64,000 nt of DNA, taken from the sequence record OZ470804.1, one strand, 5' to 3'. A program made the position numbers and the translations under genes. Positions 59,270 to 59,557 of the stretch are shown here, one piece after another. The notes below the pieces were generated by a model. The model ran no database searches and was not told the origin of the DNA. It saw nothing but the letters and a program-made list of their open reading frames with translations. This stretch comes from a phage. The stretch's first letter is position 1. Each line of letters opens with the position of its first letter.

Positions 59270-59475
59270 ACCCTTAGTTTTCGTTGCGTAGCGTCTATTT
59301 TGCAAATTTAAAATAAATGCAAACGACAATGTTTTTCTGGCAGTAGCTTGATAGGCTAAACACCAGTGAGGTCTTCCAATCCCTCATCAAAGAATTTGGC
59401 GTACTAGCCCACGGTATGATTAATAAGGTGGGCATCTTTAAGGGCTTTCTAAGAGAGAGTCTTTAAAGATAATTA

Positions 59476-59557
59476 CGGGGCGTATCTCAGCTGTCTTCTA
59501 AACAGCCGTTAACCGAGTAAGTGGAGTATGCGGGTTCGAGTCCTGCCGCCTCGACCA
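59476..59557 (+). tRNA. atypical tRNA-like gene (canonical acceptor and T-arm, aberrant D-arm region)
   Basis: acceptor CGGGGCG/CGCCTCG, T-arm GCGGG-TTCGAGT-CCTGC, CCA; internal hairpin GCTGT-CTTCTAA-ACAGC. Confidence 0.4.

What the first reader, a model, noticed from the sequence alone, without database searches (positions are those of the whole stretch)
59270..59557. Promoter-driven ~200 nt non-coding region ending in an atypical tRNA-like gene
A good TTGACA-17-TATAGT promoter (59241-59269) fires into ~200 nt with no ORF, ending in an 82 nt element with canonical acceptor stem, T-arm and CCA but no normal D-arm. The upstream part could be a small RNA or tRNA precursor leader.
Basis: seen in the sequence. 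Interest (0 to 1): 0.45.

Follow-up and report, generated by a model that had tools for sequence, protein, structure and literature searches.

The report
Phage tmRNA-mimic RNA and rewired tRNA-Arg
Behind one promoter, this Felix-O1-like phage encodes two unannotated RNAs, both widespread in phages and apparently undescribed: a ~200-nt RNA that copies the tag-coding part of the bacterial ribosome-rescue RNA (tmRNA) and has a 5' arm complementary to the host's own tmRNA, and an arginine tRNA whose D-arm is wired in a different order.

Summary
A strong sigma-70-like promoter (59241-59269) precedes about 200 nt with no conserved ORF, followed by an 82-nt tRNA-like element (59476-59557) that ARAGORN does not call. 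The region holds two separate conserved RNA genes.

(1) 59476-59557 belongs to a phage tRNA family with massive stem covariation. All well-formed members carry arginine anticodons (UCU, CCU, ACG). The D-stem is kept but with swapped strand order (CUC before the anticodon arm, GAG plus a D-loop-like UAANUGGA after it), supported by a CGC/GCG compensatory change. A near-identical phage has a canonical tRNA-Arg(UCU) in the same slot.

(2) 59276-59475 mimics the mRNA-like domain of tmRNA: A at -4, a GCA resume codon, a 10-codon tag ANDNVFLAVA (17 variants in related copies, frame always kept), the stop codon in a hairpin loop, and a covarying pseudoknot. It has no tRNA-like domain. Its invariant 5' arm is antisense to host tmRNA nt 81-105, which is identical in E. 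coli, Klebsiella and Salmonella. It occurs in Felixounavirus, Kuttervirus, lambdoid prophages and phage-plasmids (329 of 5,426 E. coli genomes) and is never annotated.

Best model (inferred, not shown): the RNA anneals to host tmRNA, masks the host tag template and offers its own.

The parts
59241..59269 (+). Sigma-70-type promoter (TTGACA 59241-46, 17-nt spacer, TATAGT 59264-69). The predicted start is near A59276.
   Evidence: 11 of 12 match, best in the region. The same element is annotated as a promoter in phage ASO1B. The start site is inferred, not mapped.
59276..59475 (+). Module 1: a ~200-nt structured RNA that mimics the mRNA-like domain of tmRNA. Its 3' end is presumably made by RNase P cleavage at the 5' end of the downstream tRNA (inferred).
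   Evidence: MFE -59.5 vs -42.0 +/- 3.7 kcal/mol for shuffles, z = -4.8. Homologues occur in 119 viral contigs forming 52 clusters and in 329 of 5,426 E. coli genomes. Rfam tmRNA gives only 15.4 bits.
59276..59301 (+). 5' arm AGUUUUCGUUG-CGUA-GCGUCUAUUUU, antisense to host tmRNA nt 81-105 (frame-setting U85/A86, resume codon, codons 1-6).
   Evidence: AGUUUUCGU is the exact reverse complement of ssrA nt 97-105. Duplex -20.8 to -22.6 kcal/mol vs -9.1 +/- 2.6 for shuffled host segment, 0 of 1000 as good. All 35 distinct arms prefer the host over their own tag region. The target is identical in E. coli, Klebsiella and Salmonella.
59296..59315 (+). Cis hairpin UAUUUU-GCAAAUUU-AAAAUA. The arm's 3' part pairs with the RNA's own region upstream of the resume codon.
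   Evidence: MFE. Co-folding with the host segment opens it and frees positions -10 to +6. Prediction only.
59313..59318 (+). AUAAAU, positions -6 to -1 before the resume codon (A at -4, U at -5, as A86/U85 of E. coli tmRNA).
   Evidence: -4 is A in 30 of 30, -5 is U in 27 and C in 3, -6 is A in 30 of 30 distinct homologues. The role of A86/U85 is from PMC2481249.
59319..59351 (+). Tag-like reading frame GCA AAC GAC AAU GUU UUU CUG GCA GUA GCU UGA = ANDNVFLAVA-stop. It has no start codon and no SD.
   Evidence: Translation. 17 tag variants in all, always 10 codons, F/Y at position 6, stop at the same place. The overlapping AUG frame is not conserved.
59337..59366 (+). Helix-5-like hairpin (CUGG 59337-40 / CCAG 59363-66; UAGC 59344-47 / GCUA 59355-58) with the stop codon UGA (59349-51) in its loop.
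   Evidence: Helices 99% and 92% paired in 24 diverse sequences; they are mostly invariant, so there is little covariation.
59367..59399 (+). H-type pseudoknot: S1 UGAGG 59367-71 / CCUCA 59382-86; S2 CCAA 59376-79 / UUGG 59396-99.
   Evidence: S1 is 100% paired with 3 of 5 pairs changing on both sides. S2 has two pairs switching AU/GC/CG. Slid controls give 30-53% paired.
59407..59433 (+). Hairpin GCCCAC-GGUAUGAUUAAUAAG-GUGGGC with a conserved loop (G)UGAUUAAUAA.
   Evidence: The stem differs between families while staying complementary (GCCC/GGGC, GACGGGAG/CUCCCGUC, GCCCUGA/UCAGGGC), read from the sequences. Not counted formally.
59434..59470 (+). Terminal 17-bp hairpin AUCUUUAAGGGCUUUCU-AAG-AGAGAGUCUUUAAAGAU, specific to Ounavirinae. 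A paralogous hairpin lies at 58668-58702.
   Evidence: MFE. Similar hairpin in Erwinia phage Roscha1.
59476..59557 (+). Module 2: tRNA-Arg(UCU) with a rearranged D-arm. Acceptor 59476-82 / 59547-53; U8 A9 U10; CUC 59486-88; anticodon stem-loop 59490-59506 (anticodon UCU 59497-99); linker CGUUAACC 59507-14; GAG 59515-17; D-loop-like UAAGUGGAG 59518-26; T-arm 59530-46; A73 59554; CCA 59555-57.
   Evidence: Covariation. CUC:GAG is 100% paired, with U-A changed to G-C in two unrelated members. Model R1 scores 100 bits here vs 33 or less for canonical tRNAs. Only Arg anticodons occur in the family. A canonical tRNA-Arg(UCU) fills the same slot in phage ph2-2.
59572..59919 (+). Context only: a 115-aa HNH-like (putative homing endonuclease) ORF directly downstream of the tRNA.
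   Evidence: Pfam HNH 17.6 bits, below the 21.4 cut-off. Annotated as 'putative HNH homing endonuclease' in phage Alf5. An HNH gene also follows the tRNA in jumbo phage PHA46.

Best explanation
The locus is one promoter-driven operon of two stable RNAs in the tRNA cluster of a Felixounavirus.

(A) SHOWN: 59476-59557 is a member of a phage-specific family of arginine tRNAs (here anticodon UCU). The acceptor, anticodon and T arms are canonical. The D-arm is rebuilt with different connectivity: the strand that normally returns from the D-loop (CUC) comes first and runs straight into the anticodon stem, and its partner (GAG) and a D-loop-like A-A-N-U-G-G-A follow the anticodon arm. INFERRED: it folds into an L-shape, is charged by ArgRS and reads the phage's abundant AGA/AGG codons. 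The rewiring may let it escape a host factor that acts on canonical tRNA-Arg.

(B) SHOWN: 59276-59475 is a conserved structured RNA that reproduces the mRNA-like domain of tmRNA but has no tRNA-like domain, and its first ~25 nt are specifically complementary to host tmRNA nt 81-105. INFERRED mechanism ('template swap'): alone, the 5' arm masks the RNA's own resume region. When it meets host tmRNA, the arm anneals to the host tag template and blocks it. That tethers the phage RNA next to the host's alanine-charged tRNA-like domain and frees the phage RNA's own resume codon. Rescued ribosomes would then finish on the phage template and add (A)ANDNVFLAVA instead of (A)ANDENYALAA. Ribosome recycling would be kept while the degradation tag is changed. 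RNase P cleavage at the tRNA would set the 3' end of RNA (B).
For: tRNA:
- 31 distinct members: 99.2% of stem cells paired, 15 of 20 pairs with changes on both sides, 0 of 500 shuffles as good.
- CUC:GAG is paired in all members, with CGC:GCG in two unrelated members, while the second GGAG stays unchanged.
- The linker between the anticodon stem and GAG varies (8, 5, 4 or 3 nt) while the flanks stay fixed.
- Every hit with valid stems has an Arg anticodon: UCU 53, CCU 6, ACG 4-5.
- Phage ph2-2 has a canonical tRNA-Arg(UCU) in the same slot.
- ARAGORN and Rfam find no other Arg tRNA in the 64-kb window.
- AGA+AGG make up 37.5% of Arg codons in the phage's long ORFs.
- The proposed fold is within 3 kcal/mol of the MFE.

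Tag RNA:
- Rfam aligns 59283-59474 to tmRNA model positions 56-295, best at AAAAUAAAUGCAAACGACAA.
- 17 tag variants in all, always 10 codons, A-N-[DE]-x-x-[FY]-L-A-V-A with rare exceptions, stop at a fixed place in the hairpin loop.
- A at -4 in 30 of 30 and U/C at -5, matching the frame-setting A86/U85 (PMC2481249).
- The pseudoknot covaries.
- No conserved ORF on either strand.

Antisense arm:
- The exact 9-mer complement lies at ssrA 97-105.
- The best antisense alignment falls at ssrA 84-105 in 11 of 11 families.
- Against 1,000 shuffles of the host segment, z = -2.6 to -6.8, with 0-12 of 1000 as good.
- 35 of 35 distinct arms pair better with the host (mean -20.2) than with their own tag region (mean -9.8 kcal/mol).
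- The target is identical in E. coli, K. pneumoniae and S. enterica.
- Co-folding moves the arm to the host and unpairs the RNA's own -10 to +6 region (ddG -8.9 and -14.9 kcal/mol).
- A helix around the resume codon is known to inactivate tmRNA (PMC2481249).

Distribution: Felixounavirus, Kolesnikvirus, Kuttervirus, swi2-like and other siphophages, lambdoid prophages between the Q and holin genes, and ~100-115 kb E. coli plasmids that I take to be SSU5-like phage-plasmids.
Against: - No transcript, end-mapping, charging or tagging data were found. Everything functional is inferred.
- The RNA fails tmRNA membership: no tRNA-like domain, 15.4 bits against a cut-off of 47, and nucleotide similarity to E. 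coli ssrA that is not significant outside the tag.
- No equivalent of pseudoknot 1 could be established.
- The antisense idea was formed after inspection. Arm-vs-whole-ssrA duplex energies are not better than arm shuffles. In the window RNA another internal 23-mer ties the arm's antisense alignment score. The 11 families share the motif, so they are not independent tests.
- The duplex is A/U-rich, and translating ribosomes can unwind such helices.
- A bimolecular template has no precedent in trans-translation.
- In lambdoid copies, and in phage GEC_vB_B1 (87-nt insert after the -10 box), the arm is not at the primary 5' end and would need processing.
- Evidence that the tag is decoded is indirect; part of its conservation is explained by the hairpin.
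- For the tRNA, only one kind of compensatory change supports the 3-bp helix. The core was partly fixed by my search patterns. Charging and L-shape are untested.
Confidence: 0.5

Rival explanations
1. Pure anti-tmRNA antisense RNA. The 5' arm binds and blocks the host tag template (or marks tmRNA for RNase III/E), and the tag-like region is never decoded. It exists as the arm's intramolecular pseudo-target, keeping the seed masked until host tmRNA is met, which would explain why it looks like the host sequence.
For: The arm's complementarity and specificity for host nt 81-105. The arm pairs in cis with the RNA's own -10 to +12 region in the MFE. A helix at the resume codon inactivates tmRNA (PMC2481249). 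Phage RNAs that act on host regulatory RNAs are known (PMC4104026, listed).
Against: The mimicry extends well beyond the arm's cis partner: a fixed 10-codon length, F/Y at codon 6, L-A-V-A, the stop codon in a helix-5-like loop, and a pseudoknot immediately after. Blocking the template without a replacement would trap ribosomes that have accepted Ala-tmRNA (my inference).
Confidence: 0.25
2. A self-sufficient or two-piece phage tmRNA. The tag RNA works with a phage-encoded acceptor piece, either the adjacent tRNA-like element or another tRNA-shaped RNA in the cluster, as in permuted two-piece tmRNAs.
For: The window element has G3:U70 and A73, the alanine identity set. Rfam's permuted-tmRNA model gives weak hits of 19-22 bits. 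T-arm-containing modules lie next to the tag RNA in several families.
Against: G3:U70 is present in only 7 of 31 members. The element has a covarying anticodon arm with Arg anticodons. It occurs with its own promoter in phages that gave no tag-RNA match by blastn. It is replaced by a canonical tRNA-Arg or tRNA-Leu next to the tag RNA in relatives. Model R1 finds no copy near tag RNAs outside Felixounavirus. The tag RNA has no 5' acceptor strand, since the promoter abuts AGUUUUCG. ARAGORN finds no tmRNA.
Confidence: 0.05
3. A tRNA-operon leader or processing scaffold. The ~200 nt are only a structured 5' leader that stabilises or times maturation of the downstream tRNA, with no function in trans.
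For: It lies directly upstream of a tRNA in three Ounavirinae lineages and inside multi-RNA arrays elsewhere.
Against: The same core is conserved in lambdoid prophages, ~100-115 kb plasmids and Kuttervirus, where no tRNA follows directly. A leader would not need a conserved tmRNA-style tag frame with A at -4 and an arm matched to host tmRNA.
Confidence: 0.1
4. The rearranged tRNA is not a decoder but a decoy or regulator, for example a bait for a host nuclease or modification enzyme that targets tRNA-Arg, or a crippled gene carried along by the neighbouring HNH homing endonuclease.
For: tRNA finders reject it. HNH genes flank it in two unrelated phages. Phage tRNAs are known to counter tRNA-targeting defences (PMC10264068 and PMC12409363, listed).
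Against: All features needed for maturation and EF-Tu binding are under strong purifying and compensatory selection. The anticodon loop is a perfect tRNA-Arg loop, and three different Arg anticodons use the same scaffold. It is the only UCU-anticodon gene found in a phage that uses AGA/AGG for 37.5% of Arg codons. It substitutes for a canonical tRNA-Arg(UCU).
Confidence: 0.2
5. Small proteins on the minus strand, as annotated in phage GEC_vB_B1, are the real genes here.
For: A 46-aa ATG ORF at 59295-59435 on the minus strand. Gene callers annotated similar ORFs in a relative.
Against: The longest minus-strand ORF ranges from 3 to 55 aa across families. The substitutions are compensatory in RNA helices.
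Confidence: 0.02

Closest known systems
Bacterial tmRNA (SsrA; Rfam RF00023), mRNA-like domain
   Same: A/U-rich upstream tract with A at -4 and U at -5, a GCA resume codon, a 10-codon tag beginning A-N-D/E with an aromatic residue at position 6 and an Ala/Leu/Val C-terminus, the stop codon in the loop of a helix-5-like hairpin, and a pseudoknot immediately after.
   Different: No acceptor stem, T-arm or CCA, so it cannot be alanylated. Only one pseudoknot is demonstrable. About 200 nt rather than ~360. It scores 15 bits against a cut-off of 47. The tag ends LAVA, not ALAA. It carries an arm antisense to genuine tmRNA. It is found only on phages, prophages and large plasmids of Enterobacterales (3 of 185,579 species-representative genomes).
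Two-piece (circularly permuted) tmRNAs of alpha-proteobacteria, cyanobacteria and beta-proteobacteria (RF04321 and relatives)
   Same: Precedent that the tRNA-like and mRNA-like functions can sit on separate RNA chains held together by base pairing.
   Different: In those, both pieces come from one gene, the coding piece carries the 5' acceptor strand, and the pairing is the acceptor and P2 helices. Here the proposed partner is the host's complete tmRNA, and the pairing is with its tag template.
Jakobid mitochondrial tmRNAs that retain only the tRNA-like domain (from my own knowledge, not checked here)
   Same: Shows that tmRNA domains can exist singly.
   Different: It is the converse case: tRNA-like domain only, with no tag template.
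Full-length tmRNA genes carried by some phages (e.g. the Acinetobacter phage record with an annotated ssrA; mycobacteriophage cluster C from my own knowledge)
   Same: Phage investment in the ribosome-rescue pathway.
   Different: Those are complete tmRNAs found by ARAGORN or Rfam. This one is not detected and lacks the tRNA-like domain.
Prophage-encoded anti-sRNAs AgvB and AsxR of EHEC (PMC4104026)
   Same: A phage RNA that acts on a host non-coding RNA by base pairing, in part by mimicking that RNA's natural partner. Also encoded in lambdoid prophages.
   Different: Those are short Hfq-dependent RNAs that sponge regulatory sRNAs. Here the target would be tmRNA, and the RNA also carries a surrogate template.
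Canonical phage tRNA-Arg(UCU), e.g. Salmonella phage ph2-2 (L182:948-1024)
   Same: Same genomic slot, same anticodon stem-loop (CUGU-CUUCUAA-ACAG), 7-bp acceptor, 5-bp T-stem with a UUCGAxU loop, CCA.
   Different: The canonical D-arm (stem, loop, stem between positions 10 and 25) is replaced by UCUCA. The partner strand and GG loop are moved to the variable-region side. 82 nt rather than 77. Model R1 gives 100 bits vs 21.5 bits.
D-arm-lacking mitochondrial tRNAs (PMC2797822, PMC4394434) and 8/4 or 9/3 'allo-tRNAs' (PMC5389517)
   Same: Functional tRNAs that depart from the cloverleaf and escape standard finders. Some of the 8/4 type occur in phages.
   Different: Mitochondrial forms lose the D-arm. 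This family keeps a D-stem and a GG-containing loop but changes their order. Allo-tRNAs alter acceptor/T-stem lengths, which are canonical (7/5) here.

Membership tests
tmRNA (RF00023) | tRNA-like domain: acceptor stem formed by the 5' and 3' ends with G3:U70, T-arm, 3' CCA | tested here: not met
   No acceptor strand follows the predicted start. ARAGORN finds no tmRNA in the window or in 124 homologous loci; its only calls reuse a neighbouring tRNA-Met. The only unannotated T-arms in the window are at 58846 and in the Arg tRNA.
tmRNA (RF00023) | Score at or above Rfam's gathering threshold | tested here: not met
   15.4 bits against 47 for RF00023 and 22.2 bits against 47 for RF04321. Similar weak hits in relatives.
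tmRNA (RF00023) | Resume codon preceded by the frame-setting A at -4 (A86) and U at -5 | tested here: met
   -4 is A in 30 of 30; -5 is U in 27 and C in 3. The requirement is from PMC2481249.
tmRNA (RF00023) | Short tag ORF without a start codon, Ala-rich hydrophobic C-terminus, stop codon in the helix 5 loop | tested here: met
   ANDNVFLAVA-stop at 59319-59351. 17 variants in all, all 10 codons. Hairpin.
tmRNA (RF00023) | Pseudoknots PK1 to PK4 around the template | tested here: inconclusive
   One covarying H-type pseudoknot sits in the PK2 position. No conserved PK1 equivalent. Nothing corresponds to PK3 or PK4.
tmRNA (RF00023) | Tag is actually translated (trans-translation) | not testable with these tools
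   Needs proteomics or reporter tagging.
trans-acting antisense RNA against host tmRNA | Specific, conserved complementarity to an accessible target site | tested here: met
   Exact 9-mer plus a second segment. z = -2.6 to -6.8 against shuffled target in 11 families. 35 of 35 arms prefer the host over their own tag region. The target is identical in three host genera. Caveats apply.
trans-acting antisense RNA against host tmRNA | Physical pairing in vivo and an effect on the target | not testable with these tools
   Needs RIL-seq/CLASH, gel shift and tagging assays.
tRNA (RF00005) | 7-bp acceptor stem, discriminator, CCA (encoded or addable); 5-bp T-stem with a UUCRAnY loop | tested here: met
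   Covariation: acceptor 6 of 7 and T-stem 3 of 5 pairs change on both sides. CCA is encoded in some members and absent in others.
tRNA (RF00005) | 5-bp anticodon stem and 7-nt loop with U33 and a purine at 37 | tested here: met
   GCUGU-CUUCUAA-ACAGC. All 5 pairs covary.
tRNA (RF00005) | D-arm hairpin between positions 10 and 25 | tested here: not met
   Only UCUCA lies there. Rfam deletes 15 model positions and inserts 20 nt in the variable region. ARAGORN makes no call.
tRNA (RF00005) | Score at or above Rfam's gathering threshold | tested here: inconclusive
   31.2 bits against 29 in a 421-nt search, but not reported in the whole-window gathering search.
tRNA-Arg | Arginine anticodon; ArgRS identity elements (A20 in the D-loop, C35, purine 73; from textbook knowledge) | tested here: met
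   Only UCU, CCU and ACG occur in well-formed members. C35 is present. Position 73 is A or G in most members. An A follows the GG in the D-loop-like segment (UGGA), but its equivalence to A20 is inferred.
tRNA-Arg | Aminoacylation with arginine and decoding on the ribosome | not testable with these tools
   Indirect only: it replaces a canonical tRNA-Arg(UCU), and AGA/AGG use is high.

The most novel reading that the evidence does not exclude
Phages of Enterobacterales reprogram the host's ribosome-rescue system with a 'template-swap' RNA. A tRNA-domain-less copy of the tmRNA tag template docks by a 5' antisense arm onto the host tmRNA's own template. This silences the host template and, by strand exchange, exposes the phage template. 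Ribosomes rescued by host Ala-tmRNA/SmpB would then be released after adding a phage-specified tag (…LAVA) instead of the ClpXP degradation tag (…LAA). This would be the first natural bimolecular tmRNA assembled from host and virus parts, and the first natural RNA regulator of tmRNA. Independently, the adjacent gene would be the first tRNA class in which D-arm connectivity is permuted while the L-shape is kept, and it is restricted to arginine acceptors.
Probability: 0.3. Interest if true: 0.92.

Novelty: categorically new. Interest (0 to 1): 0.82.

Why it matters
If the tag RNA does what its anatomy suggests, it reveals a new layer of phage-host conflict: control of trans-translation and of the fate of proteins from stalled ribosomes. 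It would also give a natural tool for retargeting tmRNA tagging. The element is common. It is in 6% of complete E. coli genomes, in lambdoid prophages between the Q and holin genes, in ~100-115 kb plasmids, and in Felixounavirus and Kuttervirus phages. Yet it is invisible to PGAP, Rfam and ARAGORN. The rearranged tRNA-Arg shows that the tRNA core tolerates a change of strand topology, enlarges the known structural repertoire of natural tRNAs, and means that phage tRNA censuses made with standard finders miss an arginine decoder. It could also serve as a scaffold for orthogonal tRNAs. Its restriction to arginine raises a testable question about ArgRS recognition, or about a defence that targets tRNA-Arg.

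Tried and rejected
1. The adjacent tRNA-like element as the tmRNA's alanine-accepting domain. The window copy has G3:U70 and A73, but G3:U70 is present in only 7 of 31 members, and the anticodon arm covaries with Arg anticodons.
2. A first viral scan with a mis-spaced tag pattern found nothing. Corrected.
3. Whole-RNA RNAduplex against ssrA gave meaningless global duplexes and inconsistent significance (timed out, 68).
4. The 7-nt match between the conserved loop UGAUUAA (59407-33 hairpin) and ssrA UUAAUCA was seen by eye. It was dropped because the loop differs in the ~110-kb plasmid copies and their relatives that share the same hosts.
5. A pseudoknot-1 equivalent: candidate helices exist in individual families, but registers differ and RNAalifold finds nothing conserved.
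6. Close homology to E. coli ssrA: local alignment is not significant, blastn of the module does not hit ssrA in 5,426 genomes, and blastn of ssrA returned only genuine ssrA copies or fragments in phage records.
7. Origin from a bacterial tmRNA with the same tag: none among 185,579 species representatives.
8. Identity with Pas/STnc100 prophage sRNAs: no Rfam hit in lambdoid loci, and the Pas preprint makes no mention of tmRNA.
9. Conventional translation of the tag, or of the overlapping AUG frame: no SD, the AUG is lost in the ~110-kb plasmid copy and its relatives, and the AUG-frame stop is not conserved.
10. Literature: ten keyword searches found no description of either element.
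Full report
**Identity of the window and check of the observation**

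The region is 98-99% identical to Felix-O1-like phages of E. coli and Salmonella, such as Alf5, phiWec177 and ASO1B. It lies in their tRNA cluster: ARAGORN finds 22 tRNAs between 58065 and 63555, none of them for arginine.

The promoter TTGACA-17-TATAGT at 59241-59269 matches 11 of 12 positions and is the best in the neighbourhood. One relative's record annotates it as a promoter but annotates nothing downstream of it. There is no + strand ORF of 40 aa or more in 59270-59520. The 46-aa minus-strand ORF is not conserved, with counterparts of 3-55 aa in other families.

The 82-nt element is at 59476-59557, with a 7-bp acceptor stem, a T-arm, A73 and CCA. ARAGORN and Rfam's whole-window scan both miss it. 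A focused Rfam scan gives tRNA 31.2 bits, with the D-arm deleted and a 20-nt insertion after the anticodon arm. What follows shows that the region contains two separate, conserved RNA genes.

**The tRNA-like element is a real RNA family**

A pattern built from four homologues retrieved 46 viral contigs. These range from 14-kb fragments to 360-kb jumbo phages, and include phi92-like, rV5-like and Proteus phages. The 28-31 distinct sequences have unrelated acceptor, anticodon and T stems that stay complementary. 99.2% of cells are paired, 15 of 20 pairs change on both sides, no shuffle out of 500 reaches this, and slid controls give 33-50% paired.

A covariance model built from them scores members at 95-102 bits and ordinary tRNAs at 33 bits or less. 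That includes the canonical tRNA-Arg(UCU) of phage ph2-2, at 21.5 bits. Some members encode CCA and others do not, as is usual for tRNA genes.

**It is an arginine tRNA with a rearranged D-arm**

The anticodon loop is CUUCUAA, identical to the loop in the canonical ph2-2 tRNA-Arg(UCU). When I left the whole anticodon arm free in the search pattern, every hit with valid acceptor and anticodon stems carried UCU (53), CCU (6) or ACG (4-5). All three are arginine anticodons. All other hits lacked tRNA stems.

The nearly invariant core reads U8-A9-U10-C-U-C-N, then the anticodon arm, then a linker, then G-A-G-U-A-A-N-U-G-G-A, then the T-arm. The triplets CUC and GAG are paired in all members. Two members with unrelated acceptor stems have CGC and GCG instead, while the other candidate partner (GGAG) is unchanged. 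The linker between the anticodon stem and GAG varies (CGUUAAYC, UGAAA, AGCC, UCA) while the flanks are fixed.

I read this as a D-stem whose two strands have exchanged places in the chain. The strand that normally leads into the anticodon stem comes directly after position 10. The strand that normally follows position 9, together with a D-loop-like A14-A-N-U-G18-G19-A20, comes after the anticodon arm. All the pieces that build the tRNA elbow are present, so an L-shape is plausible, but that is inference. The proposed fold costs only 3 kcal/mol more than the MFE.

**Evidence that it is used as a tRNA**

Salmonella phage ph2-2 has a canonical tRNA-Arg(UCU) in exactly this slot, while the window and GEC_vB_B1 have the rearranged gene. 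No other arginine tRNA is detected in the 64-kb window. The phage uses AGA and AGG for 37.5% of its arginine codons, 15 per 1,000 codons; these codons are rare in E. coli (my own knowledge).

Why only arginine tRNAs are rewired is unknown. One possibility is escape from a host factor acting on tRNA-Arg, in line with published ideas on phage tRNAs and tRNA-targeting defences (PMC10264068, PMC12409363; neither describes this structure). Another is a link with ArgRS recognition of the D-loop. HNH-type ORFs follow the gene here and in a jumbo phage, so it may move as a cassette.

**The upstream 200 nt are an independent RNA that mimics the tag template of tmRNA**

Rfam aligned 59283-59474 weakly (15.4 bits) to the interior of tmRNA, best at AAAAUAAAUGCAAACGACAA. 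The sequence reads GCA AAC GAC AAU GUU UUU CUG GCA GUA GCU UGA, which is ANDNVFLAVA-stop. The E. coli tag is ANDENYALAA.

The same signature occurs in 119 viral contigs forming 52 clusters. These cover:
- Felixounavirus, Kolesnikvirus (Erwinia), Kuttervirus, and swi2-like and other siphophages;
- lambdoid prophages, where it lies after pR'/tR' between the Q antiterminator and holin genes;
- ~100-115 kb plasmids, which I take to be SSU5-like phage-plasmids, next to a tRNA cluster.

It is present in 329 of 5,426 complete E. coli genomes and is never annotated. Among 185,579 species-representative genomes, only three Enterobacterales carry it, all as ~110-kb-plasmid-type or prophage-type copies, and no genuine tmRNA has this tag.

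Across 17 tag variants the frame is always 10 codons. Position 6 is always Phe or Tyr (codons UUU, UUC, UAU, UAC). The C-terminus is L-A-V-A, with one LAAA exception. The stop codon (UAA, UGA or UAG) sits at the same place. Fishing with a segment outside the tag gave the same picture.

The nucleotides upstream match what is known to set the frame on tmRNA. A at -4 is invariant (30 of 30), -5 is U or C, and -6 is A. In E. coli, A86 at -4 is essential and U85 tolerates C or G (PMC2481249).

The stop codon lies in the loop of a hairpin, as in tmRNA helix 5. Immediately after comes an H-type pseudoknot whose two stems covary: stem 1 is 100% paired with 3 of 5 pairs changed on both sides, and stem 2 has AU/GC/CG switches. 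The window RNA folds far better than shuffles (z = -4.8). The overlapping AUG frame is not conserved, and there is no SD.

**It is not a tmRNA**

It has no acceptor strand, T-arm or CCA. It scores far below Rfam's threshold. Its nucleotide similarity to E. coli ssrA is not significant outside the tag. No PK1 equivalent could be established.

The neighbouring rearranged tRNA is not its tRNA-like domain. G3:U70 is not conserved (7 of 31 members). That tRNA occurs with its own promoter in phages that gave no tag-RNA match. In relatives, the tag RNA is followed instead by a canonical tRNA-Arg or tRNA-Leu.

**The 5' arm is antisense to host tmRNA**

The most conserved part of the RNA is its 5' end, (A)GUUUUCG(U). 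It lies 6-12 nt after a -10 box in the window and, by eye, in several unrelated phage groups. AGUUUUCGU is the exact reverse complement of E. coli ssrA nt 97-105, within tag codons 3-6.

A second conserved segment (GCGAC; in the window GCGUCUAUUUU) is complementary to ssrA (AAAAU)AGUCGC, which includes U85, A86 and the resume codon. In the window, AGUUUUCGUUG-CGUA-GCGUCUAUUUU faces AAAAUAGUCGC-AAA-CGACGAAAACU (ssrA 81-105). In the lambdoid form, 18 of 19 host nucleotides are paired.

Statistics:
- The best antisense alignment of the first 23 nt against the whole of ssrA falls at nt 84-105 in all 11 families tested. Shuffles do as well in 0 to 135 of 1000 trials.
- Against 1,000 shuffles of the host segment, the real segment is bound far better: z = -2.6 to -6.8, with 0-12 of 1000 as good.
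- All 35 distinct arms pair better with the host template (mean -20.2 kcal/mol) than with the RNA's own tag region (mean -9.8). This argues against the complementarity being a by-product of an internal hairpin.
- The host segment is identical in E. coli, K. pneumoniae and two S. enterica lineages, which fits the invariance of the arm.

Caveats: the idea arose on inspection. Shuffling the arm and scanning the whole of ssrA by energy is not significant. One internal 23-mer of the window RNA ties the arm's alignment score. The families share the motif and so are not independent.

**Proposed mechanism (inferred)**

In the free RNA, the arm pairs with the RNA's own -10 to +12 region. Co-folding with the host segment moves the arm onto host nt ~78-105 and leaves the phage resume region fully unpaired (ddG -8.9 kcal/mol for the window, -14.9 for the lambdoid form).

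A helix around the resume codon is known to inactivate tmRNA (PMC2481249). I therefore propose that the RNA anneals to host tmRNA, silences its template and presents its own. The phage chain leaves the duplex at the host's upstream side, about 20 nt before its own GCA, so the surrogate resume codon would sit close to where the host's would be.

Keeping a template with a stop codon would preserve ribosome release, which is what phages need from tmRNA according to the plaque assays discussed in PMC2481249. Meanwhile the C-terminal residues change from ALAA to LAVA. From my own memory of the ssrA-tag literature, not checked here, the N-terminal AANDxxY determinants serve SspB and the C-terminal LAA serves ClpX. 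The phage tag keeps the former and alters the latter.

The main alternative is a pure antisense inhibitor whose tag-like part is only a masking pseudo-target. I rate the general statement 'this RNA targets host tmRNA' at about 0.6 and the full swap at about 0.3.

**Novelty and limits**

Ten literature searches and four targeted paper look-ups found no description of either RNA. PGAP, Rfam and ARAGORN do not annotate them. One phage record labels the tRNA 'tRNA-Undet'.

The tRNA is a new structural variant of a known kind. The tag RNA fits no known class: it is neither a tmRNA nor an ordinary sRNA. All functional statements are inferences from sequence. The experiments that would settle them are listed under decisive next steps.

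Noticed in passing
window 58644-59075: The 432-nt gap between tRNA-Tyr and tRNA-Lys has no notable ORF and folds far better than shuffles (-126.8 vs -97.9 +/- 5.2 kcal/mol, z = -5.6). It contains a tRNA-shaped multibranch domain (~58790-58922) with a T-arm (GAAGG-UUCGAUU-CCUUC, 58846-62), an 'acceptor' closed by a tetraloop (ACUCGGC-AGAU-GUCGAGU) and a D-arm-like hairpin. That is the order of a permuted tRNA or a Y-RNA-like tRNA mimic. A ~22-bp stalk follows (58925-59068). Rfam finds nothing. A relative's record annotates a 129-nt 'tRNA-Thr' in the homologous gap.
   Followed up: partly
L162:2860-3320 (E. coli prophage); also L008, L018, L020, L037 and others: In lambdoid-type contigs the tag RNA is embedded in arrays of modules. 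Each module is bounded by the same 12-19-nt inverted repeat (CACAAC-AGGUAAGAGCAUU ... AGUGCUCUUUCC-GUUGUG) around a hypervariable 50-90-nt insert. Some inserts are tRNA-like with a GGUUCGAAUCC T-arm. The arrays are followed by GUUGUGGUG...CACCACAAC hairpin modules. They look like processing stalks around cargo RNAs in the late-operon leader. Rfam gathering scans give no hit.
   Followed up: partly
L181:745-835 (Salmonella phage GEC_vB_B1): An 87-nt insertion forming a long hairpin (CAGAAUAUGUA...UACAUAUUCUG) sits between the -10 box and the AGUUUUCG motif, so in this phage the RNA's 5' arm would need processing to become terminal. The record annotates four small minus-strand 'hypothetical proteins' between the promoter and the next tRNA (three of them over the two RNA genes), which are probably spurious.
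   Followed up: partly
L002:716-1090 and L119 (swi2-like phages): ARAGORN reports a 'tmRNA' with tag AKAVRLRKCSFRCGECAG that borrows the 3' end of the adjacent tRNA-Met. It is a false call that lies just downstream of the real tag-like RNA.
   Followed up: yes
L004:~394-566 (Erwinia phage Roscha1) and L005:~420-530 (phage PATM): Long (100-170 nt) tRNA-like elements not called by ARAGORN, with a 7-bp acceptor stem (GGGUGAU/AUCACUC in Roscha1, followed by G-CCA), a T-arm and a large internal insertion. The Roscha1 one begins GGGUGAUUCUG, reminiscent of the tmRNA 5' end, but lacks G3:U70. Seen by eye only.
   Followed up: no
L160:2689-2762: A jumbo-phage contig carries two rearranged arginine tRNAs, one with anticodon UCU (97 bits) and a more divergent one with ACG (52.8 bits, 3-nt linker). 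This shows the scaffold has been reused for different Arg isoacceptors within one genome.
   Followed up: yes
window 59572-59919, 60509-60961, 61638-62195, 62584-63381: Several ORFs interrupt the tRNA cluster. The first is a weak HNH match (17.6 bits, below threshold) and is annotated as a homing endonuclease in a relative. Gene content between the tRNAs differs between close relatives (tRNA-Asp, tRNA-Met and tRNA-Arg(ACG) are present in ASO1B but not called here), suggesting endonuclease-driven turnover. The other ORFs were not analysed.
   Followed up: no
window 59407-59433: The conserved loop UGAUUAA of this hairpin is complementary to UUAAUCA in the pseudoknot region of E. coli tmRNA. Seen by eye. 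The loop differs in the ~110-kb plasmid copies and their relatives, so this is probably chance.
   Followed up: partly
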